Virus record (IMG/VR): IMGVR_UViG_2606217102_000003
Coordinates: 1-11,981 of that record
DNA: 11,981 bases
Strand: one strand, 5' to 3'
Source: a virus
Lineage: Duplodnaviria > Heunggongvirae > Uroviricota > Caudoviricetes
In this document: positions 1-6,398 of the stretch, in pieces
Layout of the letters: every line of letters begins with the position of its first letter
How positions within the stretch are numbered: the first letter of the stretch is position 1
The notes under the pieces: generated by a model
What the model was told of the DNA's origin: nothing
Databases searched by the model: none
What the model saw: only the letters and a program-made list of their open reading frames with translations
Made by a program: the position numbers and the translations under genes

Positions 1-22
1 CATGATTGTGTCGAAATCCATA

Positions 23-259
23 TCACTCACCTGAGTTTCTTTCCAGCCAGCGACGGGCACCATTTTCGGTTTTAAACGTTTTGCTTTTGGTATACGTCAT
101 CGCGGTGAACGTACCGTCCTGGTTGGGGAACACGCCACATACCAGAGATTCGTTGTTGCCAAGATCGATAGTATCCATGCTGACCTCATTTCCCCTTAAC
201 GCCGGGGTAGCGGAACAAAAACCTGCTGCATAGTTATTAAAGTTGAACCCTGCCGTCAT
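23..259 (-). CDS. Hypothetical small protein (78 aa); first ORF downstream of the candidate leftward early promoter
   Basis: Complete minus-strand ORF in the track. A GAGG Shine-Dalgarno lies about 10 nt upstream of the ATG (reverse complement of 257-259). Sits directly downstream of the operator-bearing region at 360-404. No family recognised. Confidence 0.4.
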   Translation of the reverse strand: MTAGFNFNNYAAGFCSATPALRGNEVSMDTIDLGNNESLVCGVFPNQDGTFTAMTYTKSKTFKTENGARRWLERNSGE

Positions 260-359
260 GTTCTTACGCCTCGGGCTGGCTACTTAACCCCTGACCACTG
301 CCTGGTAACTCGAGGTATTGCCCTGTATTGTGTGGGACGGGATGGGTTGGTATGGGAAA

Positions 360-404
360 ACTATAGGAAATGCCTAATTACTTGTCAATAGGCTATGCCT
401 AATA
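360..404 (-). promoter_or_regulatory. Candidate leftward early promoter (P_L-like) overlapped by an operator copy
   Basis: On the minus strand: -35 TTGACA (rc of 382-387), 16-bp spacer, -10 TATAGT (rc of 360-365). The 21-bp element ttgtcaataggctatgcctaa (382-402) is the exact reverse complement of 1027-1047 on the other side of the repressor gene. Extra GCCTAAT half-site-like motifs at about 372-378 and 414-421. Confidence 0.45.
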
Positions 405-496
405 ATTTGGGCGCAACCTAATAGGTGATGGTTTGTGGAAGAGGTAGTAGGAGTTAACTAACGGGAACTAGGAATTTCCCGTCGGACCATATAAGT

Positions 497-973
497 TTAA
501 GTTCCTGTCTTGGTGATGTTCTGGCTTTTCCGTTTTGATTCTTGATTTTTCAGATAGTTAGCTACCTTCATTTCCATTGCGGCAATGTAGGCGCGAACGT
601 CATGATCAACCCAACTAGGCTCCGTAGCATTTCCAGATAAGATGAAAGCCACAATTGCTCTTTTTTCATCAGAGGCGGCTTGATAAAGGCTGTTTATGTC
701 TAAAAGTTCACTTTTTGTATCTGAAGTGGATGGGGTTGGTATGGGGTATTCGTTAAGCCCCCAATGCTCTGGACCAACCACATCAGAAAAGAAACGCCAT
801 AGTTCTGGAAGTTTGTCTTTACTTATCGAACCTTTCTTAATCCAGTCATGGATTGATGGTGGTTGGACTTTGAAATGACGTGCGATTTCCGCCTTTGATT
901 TGACGGCTCCTGATGCAATTTTTTTGTTAATGGCCTGCTCTATCGCTCGGCCTAAGTCTTTACCACTAAGCAT
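497..973 (-). CDS. racR: Prophage repressor, RacR-like (CI-type HTH DNA-binding protein, 158 aa)
   Basis: 158-aa ORF with an N-terminal HTH-like segment (SKAEIARHFKVQPPSIHDWIKKG). Divergent from ydaS/ydaT-like genes, the same arrangement as the Rac immunity region. GGAGA RBS upstream of the ATG. Symbol assigned by synteny and length, not by alignment. Confidence 0.75.
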   Translation of the reverse strand: MLSGKDLGRAIEQAINKKIASGAVKSKAEIARHFKVQPPSIHDWIKKGSISKDKLPELWRFFSDVVGPEHWGLNEYPIPTPSTSDTKSELLDINSLYQAASDEKRAIVAFILSGNATEPSWVDHDVRAYIAAMEMKVANYLKNQESKRKSQNITKTGT

Positions 974-1025
974 TGCTTAATAGTCTCCTATGCGCATCGC
1001 GTTAGGCAATCCCTACTCTCGATGT

Positions 1026-1070
1026 ATTAGGCATAGCCTATTGACAATTTCATTAGGCTAAGCCTAATAT
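1026..1070 (+). promoter_or_regulatory. Candidate rightward early promoter (P_R-like) with two palindromic operator sites
   Basis: -35 TTGACA (1042-1047), 17-bp spacer, -10 TAATAT (1065-1070). Near-palindrome ATTAGGCATAGCCTATT (1026-1042) overlaps the -35; perfect palindrome ATTAGGCTAAGCCTAAT (1052-1068) overlaps the spacer and -10. Confidence 0.55.
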
Positions 1071-1097
1071 TGTTGCGTGTTTTTTGGAGTTCATTCG

Positions 1098-1421
1098 ATG
1101 AAAAAAGATAACTATTCATTCAAACGAGCTTGTGCTGTTGTCGGTGGGCAATCAGCAATGGCTAGGCTTTTAGGTGTATCTCCTCCAAGCGTAAATCAAT
1201 GGATCAAAGGTGTACGTCAGTTACCTGCTGAGAGATGTCCTGCGATTGAACGAGCAACAAAAGGTGGTGTCCTGTGTGAAGAACTTCGTCCTGATGTTGA
1301 TTGGACATACTTACGACGCTCGTCATGTTATTCGCAGAATATGTCGATGAAGCAACCAAATGACGAAAACGATCATACCCGAAGCATCAAGAGGCAAATG
1401 ATTCATGAAAATCAAACATGA
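1098..1421 (+). CDS. ydaS: YdaS-like Cro-type HTH protein (107 aa)
   Basis: GGAG RBS at 1086-1089, 8 nt before ATG 1098. Protein begins MKKDNYSFKRACAVVGGQSAMARLLGVSPPSVNQWIKG, which matches my memory of YdaS-family proteins. Positioned as first rightward gene opposite the repressor. The track start at 1077 is probably too far upstream. Confidence 0.75.
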   Translation: MKKDNYSFKRACAVVGGQSAMARLLGVSPPSVNQWIKGVRQLPAERCPAIERATKGGVLCEELRPDVDWTYLRRSSCYSQNMSMKQPNDENDHTRSIKRQMIHENQT

Positions 1422-1830
1422 GCACATCCGCATGGCGATGAATGCCTGGGCATACCCTGATGGTGAGAAAGTTCCTGCAGCTGAAATAGCCCGGACTTAT
1501 TTCGAACTGGGGATGACGTTCCCTGAACTGTATGACGACAGCCATCCGGAAGCCCTGGCTCGCAATACCCAGAAAATTTTCCGCTGGGTAGAGAAAGACA
1601 CCCCTGATGCAGTTGAAAAAATTCAGGCGTTGTTACCAGCGATCGAAAAGGCAATGCCACCTTTGCTGGTGGCCAGAATGCGCAGCCACAGTTCAGCTTA
1701 TTTTCGGGAGCTGGTGGAGATGCGGGAGCGACTGGTGAGAGACGCTGATGATTTTGTCGCAGTGGCAATCGCCGGTTTCAATCAGATGAACCGTGGTGGC
1801 CCGGCAGGAAATGCTGTGGCAGTACATTGA
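1405..1830 (+). CDS. ydaT: YdaT-like protein (141 aa)
   Basis: Overlaps the ydaS-like stop by 17 nt (translational coupling). N-terminus MKIKHEHI and position match the YdaT family as I recall it. Confidence 0.65.
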   Translation: MKIKHEHIRMAMNAWAYPDGEKVPAAEIARTYFELGMTFPELYDDSHPEALARNTQKIFRWVEKDTPDAVEKIQALLPAIEKAMPPLLVARMRSHSSAYFRELVEMRERLVRDADDFVAVAIAGFNQMNRGGPAGNAVAVH

Positions 1831-1895
1831 CTGACAATAGCCATATCGAATCGCTTCCGGCAACTCGTGAGTAAAAAGATTCGGTATCAGAAGAG

Positions 1896-2972
1896 GTGAG
1901 TATGGCTAACGCCTGGCTCAGATTATGGCATGACATGCCAAATGACCCTAAGTGGCGAACAATTGCCAGGGTGTCAGGGCAGCCAATTGCAACAGTGATG
2001 GCAGTGTATATCCACCTCCTGGTGAGCGCGTCACGAAATGTCACGCGAGGTCACATTGATGTCACGACAGAAGATTTGGCAAGTGCGCTCGACGTGACAG
2101 AAGAGGTAATTGATTCAATTTTGCAGACGATGCAGGGGCGGGTACTTGATGGTGATTTAATCACTGGATGGGAAAAACGCCAGGTGCTGAAAGAGGACAA
2201 CGGCAATATTTCGCAAACCGCAAAATCTCCGGCAGAGCGCAAGAGGGCGCAGCGAGAGAGGGAAAGAAAGCGGGAACAAAATGGCGATTGTCACGGCGAG
2301 TCACGAAATGTCACGCACATGTCACGACGAGTCACGACAGATAAAGATACAGATAAAGATACAGATCAAGAAGATCAAAACACTATGGTCCATGGCGTAA
2401 AAAACGCCACGAACCAGGCAGGGGATGTTCAGACCGTCACTCCTGGCCAGCCCGCAGGCACGACACCGGAAGCCGATTCAGCGTATGCGCTGAAAGCCGA
2501 TTCGGGCGCTGTGCAGCAGGTGATGACCGCAAGGCAGGAGCAATCACACCAACTTCAGCAGCCTGAAGCCGATTCCGCCATTCAGCGGGAAGCCGATCGG
2601 GTAGTCCCGGAAAACACCGGGCAGCCTGTGGGACGAGTGGATTATCCTGATGTGTTCGAACAGGTCTGGCGGGAATACCCGTTGCGTGCTGGGGCAAACC
2701 CGAAGAAATCCGCTTTCAGTGCCTGGAAGGCCAGATTACGCGAGGGGGTGTCACCAGAGGCCATGCTGGATGGCGTGAGGCGTTACGCAAGATACCTTGC
2801 GGCTACCGGGAAAACGGGAACGGAATTTGTTCAGCGAGCGACGACGTTTTTTGGACCGGACCGGAATTTTGAAAACCCCTGGCTGCTCCCGGTAAGCGGC
2901 ACGAACAACCAGCGTTGTGTGAATCATATTTCTGAACCGGATACCGAAATTCCACCGGGCTTCAGGGGGTAA
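1896..2972 (+). CDS. Phage replication initiation protein (replisome-organizer-like N-terminus, conserved phage C-terminal domain) with embedded origin repeats
   Basis: GAGGTGA RBS before ATG 1896. N-terminus WLRLWHDMPNDPKWRTIARV...VYIHLL fits the replisome-organizer N-terminal pattern (W-I/L-K/R-L...D-M-F-D-D-E-K). C-terminus FEQVWREYPLRAGANPKKSAFSAWKARL...TFFGPDRNFENPW fits a conserved phage replication C-terminal domain. Iterons lie inside the coding sequence. Confidence 0.7.
   Translation: MSMANAWLRLWHDMPNDPKWRTIARVSGQPIATVMAVYIHLLVSASRNVTRGHIDVTTEDLASALDVTEEVIDSILQTMQGRVLDGDLITGWEKRQVLKEDNGNISQTAKSPAERKRAQRERERKREQNGDCHGESRNVTHMSRRVTTDKDTDKDTDQEDQNTMVHGVKNATNQAGDVQTVTPGQPAGTTPEADSAYALKADSGAVQQVMTARQEQSHQLQQPEADSAIQREADRVVPENTGQPVGRVDYPDVFEQVWREYPLRAGANPKKSAFSAWKARLREGVSPEAMLDGVRRYARYLAATGKTGTEFVQRATTFFGPDRNFENPWLLPVSGTNNQRCVNHISEPDTEIPPGFRG
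2030..2070 (+). repeat. Iteron cluster A: four direct GTCAC(G) repeats at 10-11 bp spacing
   Basis: gtcacgaaat / gtcacgcgag / gtcacattgat / gtcacgacag, read directly from the sequence. An inverted copy gacgtgac lies at 2091-2098. Confidence 0.7.
2290..2340 (+). repeat. Iteron cluster B: five direct TCACG repeats at 10-11 bp spacing
   Basis: TCACG at 2291, 2301, 2311, 2322, 2332 (tgtcacggcgag tcacgaaatg tcacgcacatg tcacgacgag tcacgacag). Immediately followed by an AT-rich repeat. Confidence 0.75.
2339..2385 (+). repeat. AT-rich tandem repeat (agataaagatac x2, then agatcaagaagatcaaaa); candidate DNA-unwinding element
   Basis: Two perfect 12-bp tandem copies followed by related A-rich sequence. 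Encodes the acidic linker DKDTDKDTDQEDQN. Confidence 0.6.
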
Positions 2973-3012
2973 GTGTTGATTTCTGGTCATGAGGTAATTT
3001 TCAGGAGGACTT

Positions 3013-3435
3013 GTGGCAAAAGTTTTTACACAAGAAGAGCGAGAAAAAATTAAAGGGCAGGTTGTTGAACTCGTACGCCAGAGTGGGCGTGAGACGTTAC
3101 GGCAACTGGAAGTCAAGACAGGTGCGACAAGATATCTGATGAGCGTTCTCGCAAGAGAGCTGGTTGCCAGCGGCGATGTATACAACTCTGGTTACGGGTT
3201 ATTCCCGTCTGAACAGGCGCGTAAGGACTGGCAAAATGCCCGTAAAAAGCTCTCAAGGGCAAAGCTGAAGAAACCATCTGCGGTTGATCCGGACCTTATC
3301 TGGTCATTACCTGACGGAGAAATACGTCGCTACGACAGGCGTCAGAACATAATCTGTCGCGAGTGCCGGAAGAGTGAGGTTATGCAGCGTGTGCTGGCAT
3401 TTTATCAGGGTAATTTTCAGGAGGTGATGGCGTGA
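3013..3435 (+). CDS. Hypothetical phage protein (140 aa), possible winged-helix N-terminus
   Basis: AGGAGG RBS at 3002-3007, 5 nt before GTG 3013. No confident family assignment. Confidence 0.5.
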   Translation: MAKVFTQEEREKIKGQVVELVRQSGRETLRQLEVKTGATRYLMSVLARELVASGDVYNSGYGLFPSEQARKDWQNARKKLSRAKLKKPSAVDPDLIWSLPDGEIRRYDRRQNIICRECRKSEVMQRVLAFYQGNFQEVMA

Positions 3436-3728
3436 GGGTGAGGGTTTATATCGCCGGTCCAATGACGGGGTATGAAAATTTCAACCGTGAGGCGTTTCAC
3501 AAGGCAGAAGAGGAACTGAAACGGGAAGGGCATACCGTCTTAAACCCGGCAGTACTTCCGGACGGGCTGACACAGCCGCACTACATGGATATTTGCATGG
3601 CAATGATTCGTTGTGTGGATGCGATTTACATGCTGAAAGGCTGGCAGCGGTCAGCGGGCGCTAAGGCAGAGCTGGCACTGGCGGAGAAACTGGGGCATGC
3701 GGTGATTTATCAGGAGGTGGCTCAATGA
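3432..3728 (+). CDS. DUF4406-like protein (nucleoside 2-deoxyribosyltransferase-like fold), 98 aa
   Basis: N-terminal motif VYIAGPMTGYENFNREAF is characteristic of the DUF4406 family as I recall it. GTG start overlaps the upstream stop (GTGA). Confidence 0.6.
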   Translation: MRVRVYIAGPMTGYENFNREAFHKAEEELKREGHTVLNPAVLPDGLTQPHYMDICMAMIRCVDAIYMLKGWQRSAGAKAELALAEKLGHAVIYQEVAQ

Positions 3729-4186
3729 GAGAGGTTAACTATGAGGCGCTTCGTGAGGCAGCACAAAACTATCAGTCGACGCTGGCGTGGTATCAGGCTA
3801 TCCCGGACAGCCCAAATGCTGAACGGGATTGTGATGCGGCTCTTGCTGCGTTTAAGCGTCATATCCGTCATCGGGAAGCGGATATTATCGCTGATTTGCT
3901 GGATGGACTGGAAGAAGCAAAATCACAACTCAACGAGCAGCGTGAGTATTACGAAGGCGTTATCTCTGATGGGAGCAAGCGTATTGCTGAACTGGAAGCG
4001 CGGGAAGTTCAATTACCGACTCGCTACGACCTTCGATATGGACACCCGATAAATGCAGATGAGCGACATGTCATGATACCTAAAGAAAATGGCAGTTGGC
4101 TTTACCTGATTGACCTAGAACACGCATTACGCGTCGCTGGCATTCGCATCAAAGGAGAGGAGCATGGAAATAAAACCAGAGGATGA
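3725..4186 (+). CDS. Ead/Ea22-like phage protein (153 aa)
   Basis: N-terminus MREVNYEALREAAQNYQ resembles Ea22-like proteins of lambdoid phages. ATG overlaps the upstream stop (ATGA). Confidence 0.55.
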   Translation: MREVNYEALREAAQNYQSTLAWYQAIPDSPNAERDCDAALAAFKRHIRHREADIIADLLDGLEEAKSQLNEQREYYEGVISDGSKRIAELEAREVQLPTRYDLRYGHPINADERHVMIPKENGSWLYLIDLEHALRVAGIRIKGEEHGNKTRG

Positions 4187-4520
4187 GTTAAGCAATATCG
4201 TTTTATTTCCGGTAAAAGAGGATGACCCTCGTAATCAGGTTAATTTTCTTTATGAGCCATCGGAAAGACCATATTGTCATCACGCCTCTGTCCGGGTTGA
4301 CGAAAAAGAGCGTCAGGTCCGCTGTAAAATCTGCGGTGCAGTTGTGGAGCCATTTGACTGGATGCTCTCTGTGGCGAAAAGAGAAACCAGACTGGCAGAT
4401 GATGTAAGGCTCTTGCGTCAGGAGGAGCGGGAAAGGCGAAAAAATATAGAAAAGCTAATTCAGATTGAGCGTAACGCGAAAGCGCGGATACGCAGGGCGA
4501 CAAAATCCAGAACTGAATAA
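4164..4520 (+). CDS. Hypothetical phage protein with putative zinc-ribbon (CHH...CKICG), 118 aa
   Basis: ORF overlaps the upstream gene by 23 nt. Cys/His cluster and basic C-terminal tail. No family recognised. Confidence 0.5.
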   Translation: MEIKPEDELSNIVLFPVKEDDPRNQVNFLYEPSERPYCHHASVRVDEKERQVRCKICGAVVEPFDWMLSVAKRETRLADDVRLLRQEERERRKNIEKLIQIERNAKARIRRATKSRTE

Positions 4521-4608
4521 TTAAATTTAGCTCTGTTAAAAATTTAATCCTTAACCGGAGGGATTTCTGCACCCTCAGAACATCAGGAGGCCGCCTGAAA
4601 GGGCGGTA

Positions 4609-5217
4609 ATGAAAATGACTGAATTAACAAAAGAACAATTAATCGAAGAAGCCAAATTAAAAATAGCGATTACGAAATGCCACCCCAATTCAGGGATGGC
4701 GCGAGTAGAGGGCGAGTTATTCAAAATTGTATTGGCATCGCTGGAAGCAGAGCCAGTGGCATATCAGTATCGCCAGTGGGATGCAGAATATGATGAATGG
4801 GGAGAATGGGAAGATTGCGGGGAATATGCTTTCGAAAGATTTGTTGAGGAAGAGAAATGCCAGGGGGCAGGTGTTCAGACCCGTAAGCTATACGCCACGC
4901 CGCCAATGCTGGTGGTGCCGGATGAACGGGCTGCCTATGAGTTATTTATGGAGAAGCATTTCGGGGATTCTGTAGATCGCCGCAGGGTAAAAAATGGCGG
5001 TAGTGAATACATGGCATGGGATATGGCGATTGGCTGGATTATCTGGTGTCACCGCGCCGCTATGTTTCAGGCCGGAAACTTTCGGAAAAATAAGAATTCG
5101 TCAACCAGCTCCCCGGCAACTCCGGATGATTGGATAAGCTGTAGTGAGCGAATGCCGGATAGCAAAACAGCTGTTCTTGTTGCCAGGGAGTTTGACGGGA
5201 AAGGTGACTGCGAATGA
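4609..5217 (+). CDS. DUF551-like protein, N-terminal part; reading frame appears disrupted at the 3' end
   Basis: C-terminal segment WISCSERMPDSKTAVLV looks like the start of a DUF551 domain. The domain's characteristic ending (HWMPLPEPP) is encoded in a different frame immediately downstream (5214-5336). Confidence 0.55.
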   Translation: MKMTELTKEQLIEEAKLKIAITKCHPNSGMARVEGELFKIVLASLEAEPVAYQYRQWDAEYDEWGEWEDCGEYAFERFVEEEKCQGAGVQTRKLYATPPMLVVPDERAAYELFMEKHFGDSVDRRRVKNGGSEYMAWDMAIGWIIWCHRAAMFQAGNFRKNKNSSTSSPATPDDWISCSERMPDSKTAVLVAREFDGKGDCE

Positions 5218-5336
5218 AGTGGGCGACTTACATACCGGGACATCCTGATGCTAATGATGGTTGGATAATTCCTGGTGCGTCGTGGATTCCATCACACTGG
5301 ATGCCGCTACCAGAACCGCCGCAGGAGGCGAAATGA
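5214..5336 (+). CDS. DUF551 C-terminal fragment (40 aa) in an alternative frame; likely the detached 3' part of the upstream gene
   Basis: Translates to MKWATYIPGHPDANDGWIIPGASWIPSHWMPLPEPPQEAK. This frame has a stop at 5205-5207, so the junction lies within 5208-5217. Confidence 0.4.
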   Translation: MKWATYIPGHPDANDGWIIPGASWIPSHWMPLPEPPQEAK

Positions 5337-5596
5337 TGGATGTAGAAGAGAAGGTTTTGCAGGTGATGCGTTCCCGTGCTGCCCTACAAGAGAAAGCTCT
5401 CGGTGGTGAATATCCATTCACGATAGCAACCTGGAATCTGCGGTTGGCAATGGAGAAGGAATTTCCTGATGAAGAATGGCGTTCGGCAGATTTGCGCAAA
5501 ATTCTTATAGAGATGGCTAAAGACGGAAAAGTATCCAAAGATACCCATGCCAGCCGGATTGGTCAGGCGGTATGGAGACTGGAGGCGAGGCAATGA
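5333..5596 (+). CDS. Hypothetical small protein (87 aa)
   Basis: ATG 5333 overlaps the stop of the DUF551 fragment (ATGA). The track ORF 5261-5596 shares this frame; the internal ATG is the more plausible start. Confidence 0.45.
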   Translation: MMDVEEKVLQVMRSRAALQEKALGGEYPFTIATWNLRLAMEKEFPDEEWRSADLRKILIEMAKDGKVSKDTHASRIGQAVWRLEARQ

Positions 5597-5676
5597 GCTG
5601 GCCTGAAGCATTCACAACGGTAGGAACTGCAATGGCGGTTGCGCTGGTGGTGTATTCGATTTGCCGCTGGGGATAA
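5593..5676 (+). CDS. Possible 27-aa hydrophobic peptide (MSWPEAFTTVGTAMAVALVVYSICRWG)
   Basis: ATG overlaps the upstream stop (ATGA). One predicted transmembrane helix. Too short for the ORF track; hand-translated. Confidence 0.25.
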   Translation: MSWPEAFTTVGTAMAVALVVYSICRWG

Positions 5677-5685
5677 ATCGCCGAA

Positions 5686-5725
5686 AAAAGATCCCGACAC
5701 AAACATGAGCTGGGATCTTTGATTT
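5686..5725. terminator. Hairpin terminator, probably bidirectional, between the rightward accessory operon and the antisense parDE pair
   Basis: aaagatccc (16-nt loop) gggatcttt; 9-bp stem flanked by an A-run on the plus side (T6 on the minus strand) and a T-rich tail. A second hairpin tccgcc...ggcgga at about 5741-5764 is followed by tttatt. Confidence 0.5.
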
Positions 5726-5800
5726 ATATAGCCTACGAATCCGCCAGTAAGAGAGGGGGCGGACGGTTTATTCTAACACCGGAATGATGTGGGTAAAAGT

Positions 5801-6100
5801 TTATAAGAAATCGGTTTCATAACTTTGCCCACCATGATAGATACCGACAATAAAGACTTTTCTGCCATCAACGGCAAAAGCAATAATCGTTCTGTGGCGG
5901 AAATGAGTTACCCGCATCCCCTGGCGAATATCATCGCGTTTATTGCCCCGATGCGGGAATGTAGAAAACCCATCAAGATAATCAAGAAGCGCATTGGCAT
6001 AATTGTCAGCAATGACGCTTCCTGCTTTCTCCGTTATGTATCTGTGCAGGTTGATTATCTGCTGTTCGGCCTCAGGAGTAATGATGACTTCATATGTCAT
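5801..6100 (-). CDS. parE: ParE/RelE-superfamily toxin (99 aa)
   Basis: MTYEVIITPEAEQQI...IIAFAVDGRKVFIVGIYHGGQSYETDF fits ParE-family toxins. Start placed at the internal ATG (rc of 6098-6100), 5 nt downstream of the antitoxin stop. The track ORF extends further upstream and would overlap the antitoxin. Confidence 0.75.
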   Translation of the reverse strand: MTYEVIITPEAEQQIINLHRYITEKAGSVIADNYANALLDYLDGFSTFPHRGNKRDDIRQGMRVTHFRHRTIIAFAVDGRKVFIVGIYHGGQSYETDFL

Positions 6101-6105
6101 GCAGA

Positions 6106-6363
6106 TTACTTCCCGGATCGAATCGCAGCGCGAACCTGTGAAATGGAGCGTCCGTTGTTCGGGTTTTTGCGGATTGAATCCAGGGAGGGGGCGGCTGAAT
6201 GCGTTAACCACGCTTCGATTGCTTTATCGCGCTCATTCAGTGCGCGAAGCCCTTCACGAATGACCTCGCTTTCTGAAGCATAGGCACCGGAAGCCACACG
6301 GGCGCGCACCATGTCAGCCATCTCGTTAGTTAATGTAATGCTGAATTGTTGGGTTGTACGCAT
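6106..6363 (-). CDS. parD: ParD-family (ribbon-helix-helix) antitoxin (85 aa)
   Basis: FSITLTNEMADMVRARVASGAYASESEVIREGLRALNERDKAIEAW matches the ParD/COG3609 pattern. GAGG RBS upstream of ATG (rc of 6361-6363). Antitoxin-then-toxin order. Confidence 0.7.
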   Translation of the reverse strand: MRTTQQFSITLTNEMADMVRARVASGAYASESEVIREGLRALNERDKAIEAWLTHSAAPSLDSIRKNPNNGRSISQVRAAIRSGK

Positions 6364-6398
6364 GGTAAACCTCAAGGAGTAGGATAGAACACTATTCG

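What the first reader, a model, noticed from the sequence alone, without database searches (positions are those of the whole stretch)
5180..5340. DUF551-like gene split across two reading frames
The 202-aa ORF ends ...WISCSERMPDSKTAVLVAREFDGKGDCE*, while the characteristic domain ending ...SHWMPLPEPPQEAK is encoded in another frame starting at 5214. That frame has a stop at 5205-5207, so the junction must lie within 5208-5217. There is no canonical slippery heptamer, so a 1-nt indel (pseudogenisation) or a sequencing error is more likely than programmed frameshifting.
Basis: seen in the sequence. Interest (0 to 1): 0.45.

Follow-up and report, generated by a model that had tools for sequence, protein, structure and literature searches.

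The report
Prophage DUF551 gene broken by one-base deletion
A prophage accessory gene of unknown function in E. coli has lost a single G, which splits its C-terminal DUF551 domain across two reading frames; this is an ordinary, real, already-annotated frameshift pseudogene and not a recoding signal or a sequencing error.

Summary
ORF 4609-5217 (202 aa) carries DUF551 profile positions 2-24. The overlapping 40-aa ORF 5214-5336, in the -1 frame, carries positions 30-68. Alignment with intact relatives shows the window has lost one G of a conserved TGG codon: GACTGGCGAATG has become GACTGCGAATG at window 5210. The relatives are phage 933W L0140, phage Louie, E. coli IAI39 and above all the ortholog in E. 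coli AST19, which is otherwise identical from 4733 to 5336. The intact product is 240-242 aa (...GKGDWRMKWATY...). The same deletion is in 3 of 5,426 complete E. coli genomes (B7A, TD225-C4, 700481). It is also in at least 24 further contigs from isolates, gut metagenomes and independently assembled read sets, in several mosaic prophage backgrounds, so it is a real inherited allele. There is no slippery heptamer, no homopolymer and no downstream RNA structure (z -0.07), and the two-frame layout is not conserved in relatives, so programmed frameshifting is excluded. By chance the deletion creates an ATGA stop/start overlap at a conserved internal Met preceded by AGGTGA, so the 40-aa remnant could be translated by coupling; this is untested. 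RefSeq already annotates the locus as a pseudogene fragment plus a 40-aa DUF551 CDS. Interest is low.

The parts
4609..5217 (+). Truncated upstream ORF (202 aa): a mosaic N-terminal module (phrog_660 / phrog_60) plus the first third of DUF551, ending at a premature TGA created by the frameshift.
   Evidence: ORF list; Pfam DUF551 profile 2-24 at residues 175-198; PHROG matches; orthologs are 238-246 aa.
5210..5210 (+). Site of the lesion: a single G where intact alleles have GG (TGG Trp codon). GACTGGCGAATG has become GACTGCGAATG, a 1-nt deletion.
   Evidence: DNA alignment with 933W, Louie, IAI39 and 57_142493 and with the AST19 ortholog, which is identical from 4733 to 5336 apart from this base.
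5214..5336 (+). 40-aa remnant ORF in the -1 frame that encodes the last two thirds of DUF551. It starts at what is an internal Met (W-R-M-K-W) of the intact protein and overlaps the upstream stop as ATGA.
   Evidence: Pfam profile 30-68; protein alignment; RefSeq WP_077763265.1 in three genomes.
5202..5207 (+). Fortuitous Shine-Dalgarno-like AGGTGA, 6 nt upstream of the remnant ORF's ATG. It is also present in intact alleles, where it is simply coding sequence.
   Evidence: Duplex with the 16S 3' end is -10.6 kcal/mol, in the top 5.8% of the 260 ATGs in the window and within the -8.3 to -17.7 range of the seven candidate ORF start codons scored alongside it. The sequence is conserved in all aligned homologues.
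5131..5324 (+). DNA that encodes the DUF551 domain as a whole (two frames in this allele, one frame in intact alleles).
   Evidence: Pfam coordinates converted to nucleotides.
5333..5596 (+). Downstream eaa-like gene (87 aa, phrog_2814). Its ATG overlaps the DUF551 stop as ATGA and it has its own GGAGG site, so a polar effect of the frameshift should be small (inference).
   Evidence: annotated as 'eaa protein' in TD225-C4 and AST19.

Best explanation
A DUF551-domain accessory gene in the early (nin/ea-type) region of a Rac-like lambdoid prophage of E. coli has suffered a real, recent, single-event deletion of one G in a TGG codon. Translation from 4609 therefore leaves the ancestral frame after Asp-200, reads Cys-Glu and stops at 5215-5217. 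The result is a 202-aa protein that keeps the N-terminal module but only about 24 of the 68 DUF551 positions. The remaining two thirds of the domain are stranded in the -1 frame as a 40-aa ORF. The full-length 240-242-aa protein is not made. The gene is a frameshift pseudogene or truncated allele that is inherited and spread by recombination among related prophages. Shown here: the deletion, its position, its presence in many independent assemblies, the lack of recoding signals, and the single-frame state of all relatives. Inferred: loss of DUF551 function, and possible coupled translation of the 40-aa remnant from the ATGA overlap and the AGGTGA site.
For: Split of one Pfam domain across two frames. 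All intact relatives read GGTGACTGGCGAATGAAG = G-D-W-R-M-K, and the window lacks one G. The AST19 ortholog (a single 240-aa DUF551 CDS) is 100% identical to the window from 4733 to 5336 except for that G. Homologues covering at least 89% of the query are 238-246 aa, and six of the seven carry a precomputed PF04448 hit. A junction-specific probe finds the deletion in 3 of 5,426 complete genomes, while the intact junction is in 105. The exact 202-aa and 40-aa products are on 16 and 20 contigs. The index lists the 202-aa product in 38 blocks, 24 contigs were read, and all 10 fetched loci carry the same deletion with 0 mismatches over 728 nt. Carriers differ in their immunity, replication and ea modules, and the window itself is a fourth mosaic. 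PGAP annotates the upstream part as a pseudogene lacking its C-terminus. There is no in-phase slippery heptamer, no homopolymer near the junction and no 3' structure, z -0.07.
Against: Nothing here contradicts the deletion. What is not shown is loss of function. DUF551 has no known activity, the N-terminal module is intact, the allele persists in several prophage backgrounds, and neither piece has accumulated a secondary lesion. The ATGA overlap plus the SD-like site would allow both pieces to be made. No expression data were available.
Confidence: 0.9

Rival explanations
1. Functional gene fission. The 202-aa protein works without a complete DUF551, and/or the 40-aa peptide is made by termination-reinitiation at the ATGA overlap and complements or acts on its own. 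On this reading the split allele is tolerated or even favoured and is not decaying.
For: ATGA stop/start overlap and an AGGTGA site 6 nt upstream, -10.6 kcal/mol, top 5.8% of ATGs. The allele is present in at least four mosaic prophage backgrounds and many samples with no secondary lesions in either piece. N-terminal modules of this family also occur as separate genes without DUF551, for example the 124-aa CDS upstream of the DUF551 gene in strain 57_142493 and the 175-aa relatives without a Pfam hit.
Against: The SD-like site and the Met are ancestral coding sequence present in all intact alleles, so they are fortuitous. The break falls inside a small 68-position domain. The near-zero divergence among carriers (0-2 mismatches in 728 nt) means the allele is too young for its persistence to indicate selection. 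It is rare: 3 of 5,426 genomes against 105 for the intact junction word.
Confidence: 0.07
2. Programmed recoding: -1 ribosomal frameshifting or transcriptional slippage restores a full-length DUF551 protein from the two frames.
For: Only the geometry supports it: the downstream frame is -1 and the permissive interval is short (5208-5217).
Against: There is no X XXY YYZ heptamer in phase. The only XXXYYYZ (GGGAAAG at 5197) is out of phase and lies upstream of the -1-frame stop at 5205-5207. The codons available for slippage (TGC, GAA, TGA) cannot re-pair in the -1 frame. There is no homopolymer of 4 or more within 5170-5220. The 85 nt downstream fold no better than shuffles, z -0.07. All relatives, including an ortholog identical apart from the missing G over the last ~600 nt, are single-frame.
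Confidence: 0.02
3. Sequencing or assembly error: the genome really has GG and the gene is intact.
For: A 1-nt indel in a GG dinucleotide is the kind of change some platforms introduce.
Against: The identical deletion is in three complete genomes from different countries and projects. It is also in draft isolate assemblies dating back to about 2014 (KDX83917.1, GCA_000713785.1), in four ENA gut metagenome assemblies and in four Logan assemblies of independent runs. The window differs by 1-2 SNPs from each complete genome, so it is a further independent source.
Confidence: 0.01

Closest known systems
Intact DUF551-domain proteins of lambdoid phages and prophages (E. coli AST19 WP_126747672.1; phage 933W L0140; phage Louie CDS0022; IAI39 WP_000208034.1; YfdS of CPS-53)
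   Same: Same C-terminal domain, with 91-94% DNA identity over the last ~230 nt (100% with AST19 apart from the missing G). Same position in the prophage early region, just upstream of an eaa-type gene. Same mosaic architecture of a variable N-terminal module plus a portable DUF551 (portability noted in PMC10834534).
   Different: Here the domain is interrupted after about profile position 24 by a 1-nt deletion, so no single polypeptide contains it.
Frameshift pseudogenes of cryptic and decaying prophages, as flagged by NCBI PGAP
   Same: A single-base indel, a premature stop and a stranded downstream ORF that gene callers pick up as a small CDS. RefSeq already annotates exactly this in B7A, TD225-C4 and 700481.
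   Different: Nothing essential. The only peculiarity is that the remnant begins at a conserved internal Met with an ATGA overlap and an SD-like motif, so it looks deceptively like a coupled gene pair.
Programmed -1 frameshift genes of phages (e.g. lambda G/GT tail assembly chaperones; E. coli dnaX)
   Same: Two overlapping ORFs with the downstream one in the -1 frame.
   Different: No slippery heptamer, no stimulatory structure, and no conservation of the two-frame layout. The relatives are single-frame.

Membership tests
DUF551 (Pfam PF04448) | Sequence match to the profile above the gathering score (22 bits) | tested here: met
   ORF1 scores 30.8 bits and ORF2 31.1 bits. The repaired fusion scores 69.5 bits over profile 2-68.
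DUF551 (Pfam PF04448) | The whole domain is present in one polypeptide | tested here: not met
   Profile positions 2-24 and 30-68 are encoded in different frames, separated by a stop. All intact relatives have it in one frame.
Programmed -1 ribosomal frameshift site | In-phase slippery heptamer X XXY YYZ within the interval where a shift could be productive (5208-5217) | tested here: not met
   None was found. The only XXXYYYZ (5197) is out of phase and upstream of the -1-frame stop.
Programmed -1 ribosomal frameshift site | Stimulatory downstream RNA structure | tested here: not met
   Region 5216-5300 has an MFE of -22.1 kcal/mol against a shuffle mean of -21.9, z -0.07.
Programmed -1 ribosomal frameshift site | Two-frame arrangement conserved among homologues | tested here: not met
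   The homologues are single-frame. The split is confined to one allele with near-zero divergence.
Transcriptional slippage site | Long A or T homopolymer at the junction | tested here: not met
   The only run of 4 or more in 5150-5220 is AAAA at 5164, far upstream of the -1-frame stops.
Translationally coupled gene pair (termination-reinitiation) | Overlapping stop and start codons, with or without an SD-like element | tested here: met
   ATGA at 5214-5217 and AGGTGA at 5202-5207. Both are by-products of ancestral coding sequence.
Translationally coupled gene pair (termination-reinitiation) | The downstream product is actually made | not testable with these tools
   This needs ribosome profiling or proteomics in a carrier strain.

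The most novel reading that the evidence does not exclude
The one-base deletion has produced a viable gene fission. The 202-aa N-terminal protein functions without DUF551, and the 40-aa C-terminal DUF551 fragment is translated by termination-reinitiation at the ATGA overlap, acting as a free micro-protein or reassembling with the N-terminal stub. On this reading the allele's spread through several prophage mosaics reflects tolerance or benefit.
Probability: 0.06. Interest if true: 0.3.

Novelty: already known. Interest (0 to 1): 0.08.

Why it matters
It matters little beyond annotation hygiene. The pair of ORFs should be treated as one frameshifted DUF551 gene and not as two genes or a recoding candidate. 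The case does illustrate how an internal Met preceded by an SD-like sequence can make a pseudogene remnant look like a translationally coupled small gene. The allele could also serve as a natural truncation for anyone trying to assign a function to the still-uncharacterised DUF551 domain.

Tried and rejected
(1) Programmed -1 frameshift or transcriptional slippage. I scanned for slippery heptamers and homopolymers and folded the 85 nt downstream, and found nothing.

(2) Sequencing error. Rejected after junction-specific probes and exact-protein look-ups found the same deletion in many independent assemblies.

(3) Recurrent deletion or hotspot in other DUF551 alleles. A probe carrying the common A-variant flank found no carrier, and there was none in the phage collection, so this is a single event.

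(4) Structure of the intact ortholog, to see where the break falls in the fold. AlphaFold2 with a 22-sequence alignment gave pLDDT 39.8 and pTM 0.26, which is unusable. No fold search was run.

(5) Sequence search of PDB with the repaired protein gave no hit at E <= 1.

(6) The PHROG scan returned only 'unknown function' families. The 'Lar-like restriction alleviation' label on the phage Louie homologue is the depositor's annotation and was not supported by any test here.

(7) Literature. DUF551 appears only as an uncharacterised portable domain (PMC10834534, PMC4776307).

Full report
OBSERVATION. The window holds a 202-aa ORF at 4609-5217 that ends ...AREFDGKGDCE*. It also holds a 40-aa ORF at 5214-5336 (MKWATYIPGHPDANDGWIIPGASWIPSHWMPLPEPPQEAK*) in the -1 frame. 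The two overlap in the tetranucleotide ATGA, and the -1 frame is closed by TGA at 5205-5207. Pfam DUF551 (PF04448, 68 positions) matches residues 175-198 of the first ORF at profile positions 2-24 (30.8 bits). It matches residues 2-37 of the second ORF at positions 30-68 (31.1 bits). A conceptual fusion matches positions 2-68 with 69.5 bits, E 4.5e-19.

WHAT HAPPENED. BLAST against phage and E. coli collections shows that the last ~230 nt are 91-94% identical to the 3' ends of DUF551 genes in 319 phage records and about 2,000 E. coli genomes. The matching stretch in the records is consistently 1 nt longer than in the query. The DNA alignment and the protein alignment used phage 933W L0140, phage Louie CDS0022, E. 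coli IAI39 and strain 57_142493. All of these read GGTGACTGGCGAATGAAG (G-D-W-R-M-K), whereas the window reads GGTGACT-GCGAATGAAG.

The best comparator is the true ortholog in E. coli AST19, a single 240-aa CDS annotated 'DUF551 domain-containing protein' in the same prophage context. From window 4733 to 5336 it is identical to the window except for this one base. The seven database homologues that cover at least 89% of the 202-aa query are all 238-246 aa, and six of them carry a precomputed PF04448 hit. The sequences of five of them (P0018, P0033-P0036) were fetched, and all end in ...HWM(P/L)LPEPPQ... That condition is not met.

REAL MUTATION, NOT AN ERROR. I used a 36-nt junction probe that intact alleles cannot seed under megablast. 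It finds exactly three of 5,426 complete E. coli genomes: TD225-C4 (Mexico), B7A, and 700481 (Pakistan) (confirmed with a second probe). No phage record carries the deletion. The repaired 37-mer is present in 105 genomes. A probe carrying the commoner A-variant flank finds no deletion carrier, so this is one mutational event in one allele and not a hotspot.

The exact 40-aa and 202-aa products are on 20 and 16 contigs respectively in the 15-billion-protein collection, with a B7A variant on 4 more. The gene-position index lists the 202-aa product in 38 blocks of the collection, of which the 24 with the longest contigs were read. These include NCBI isolate drafts, ENA gut metagenome assemblies and Logan assemblies of independent read sets. 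All ten fetched loci carry the same deletion, the same 40-aa ORF and 0 mismatches to the window over the 728-nt gene.

The carriers are mosaically different upstream: RelBE plus an HTH protein, RacR, or a LexA-like repressor, and different Ea22, DUF4752 or 118-aa neighbours. The window itself is a further mosaic. Positions 1-3717 match B7A at 99.8%, positions 4511-11336 match 700481 at 99.65%, and the segment between matches neither. It also differs from each complete genome by 1-2 SNPs within the gene. RefSeq/PGAP already annotates the upstream piece as a pseudogene ('missing C-terminus') and the 40-aa piece as WP_077763265.1.

NO RECODING. Within the only interval where a -1 shift could be productive (5208-5217: c tgc gaa tga) there is no X XXY YYZ heptamer. 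The sole XXXYYYZ nearby (GGGAAAG, 5197) is out of phase and lies before the -1-frame stop. There is no homopolymer that could support transcriptional slippage. The 85 nt downstream fold no better than shuffled sequence: -22.1 against -21.9 kcal/mol, z -0.07. The two-frame layout is confined to a single allele of near-zero divergence, which is the opposite of what a programmed signal would show.

CONSEQUENCES (inferred). Translation from 4609 yields a 202-aa protein. It retains the N-terminal module (phrog_660 / phrog_60, function unknown) but only about a third of DUF551. The full-length 240-242-aa protein is not made. The deletion places the new stop so that it overlaps (ATGA) a conserved internal Met of the ancestral protein. 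That Met is preceded at 6 nt by AGGTGA, whose duplex with the 16S 3' end is -10.6 kcal/mol. This is in the top 5.8% of the 260 ATGs in the window and within the -8.3 to -17.7 range of the seven candidate ORF start codons scored alongside it. Both elements are ordinary coding sequence in the intact alleles, so the apparent coupled gene pair is fortuitous. It does mean the 40-aa remnant could be translated by termination-reinitiation, which is untested. The downstream eaa-like gene (5333-5596) has its own GGAGG site, so a polar effect is unlikely.

CONTEXT. The gene sits in the rightward early region of a Rac-like lambdoid prophage. The order is YdaS/Cro-like, YdaT, a replication protein, DUF977, DUF4406, Ea22-like, a 118-aa zinc-ribbon-like protein, the DUF551 gene, and eaa. 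An antisense ParE/ParD pair follows, and then DUF968, RusA, the DUF1133/Q-like antiterminator, a DNA methylase, two tRNAs and TerB. DUF551 itself is an uncharacterised portable C-terminal domain. It is found on YfdS of CPS-53, on an Stx-phage Ea22 variant and fused to other enzymes (PMC10834534, PMC4776307). There is no PDB relative by sequence, and an AlphaFold2 model of the intact ortholog was too poor to use, pLDDT 39.8.

VERDICT. This is a genuine, recent, single-G deletion that pseudogenises or truncates a DUF551 prophage accessory gene. It is not a sequencing error and not programmed frameshifting. It is already annotated as such in RefSeq. The only reading with any novelty is functional fission with a coupled 40-aa product, which has a probability of about 0.06. 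Interest is 0.08.

Noticed in passing
window 1-11981 (breakpoints near 3717 and 4511): The window is a recombinant mosaic of Rac-like prophages. Positions 1-3717 are 99.8% identical to B7A and 4511-11336 are 99.65% identical to strain 700481. The block at 3717-4511 (Ea22-like 153 aa plus a 118-aa zinc-ribbon-like ORF) matches neither, but it does occur in other assemblies such as L010.
   Followed up: partly
window 5801-6100 (-) and 6106-6363 (-): A ParE toxin / ParD antitoxin pair lies antisense inside the rightward prophage early operon, immediately downstream of eaa. It is conserved in all carrier loci and in the intact AST19 locus.
   Followed up: no
protein P0005 (not in the window): A different 42-aa DUF551 fragment (MKWATYIPG...QEVNRG) starts at the same internal Met. 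It is on 11 contigs, including a 5.25-Mb genome. It belongs to another allele, and the G deletion seen here was not found in alleles with the common A-variant flank. Whether P0005's own allele has that flank was not checked, and the cause of that split was not determined.
   Followed up: partly
window 5109-5336 versus L002-L005: The 3' ~230 nt that encode DUF551 are 91-94% identical in DNA across hundreds of phages and about 2,000 E. coli genomes, while the N-terminal parts of the same genes are unrelated or shuffled. The domain appears to behave as a conserved recombination joint in lambdoid mosaics.
   Followed up: no
window 10427-10502 and 10600-10676 (+): Two prophage-borne tRNA genes lie downstream of the DNA methylase gene: anticodon CAT (called Met by ARAGORN and Ile by PGAP in the matching genomes) and Arg-TCT.
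   Followed up: no
window 4164-4520 (+): A 118-aa ORF (phrog_1621, with a weak sub-threshold TFIIB-type zinc-ribbon match) overlaps the end of the Ea22-like gene by 23 nt. It is called as a gene in several assemblies, but TD225-C4, B7A and 700481 have no annotated counterpart in the gap upstream of the DUF551 gene.
   Followed up: no
L001 6148-6585 (= window 4756-5193): PGAP's pseudogene feature covers only part of the upstream ORF and is labelled 'incomplete; partial in the middle of a contig' and not 'frameshifted'. The RefSeq annotation therefore understates the extent and cause of the lesion.
   Followed up: no
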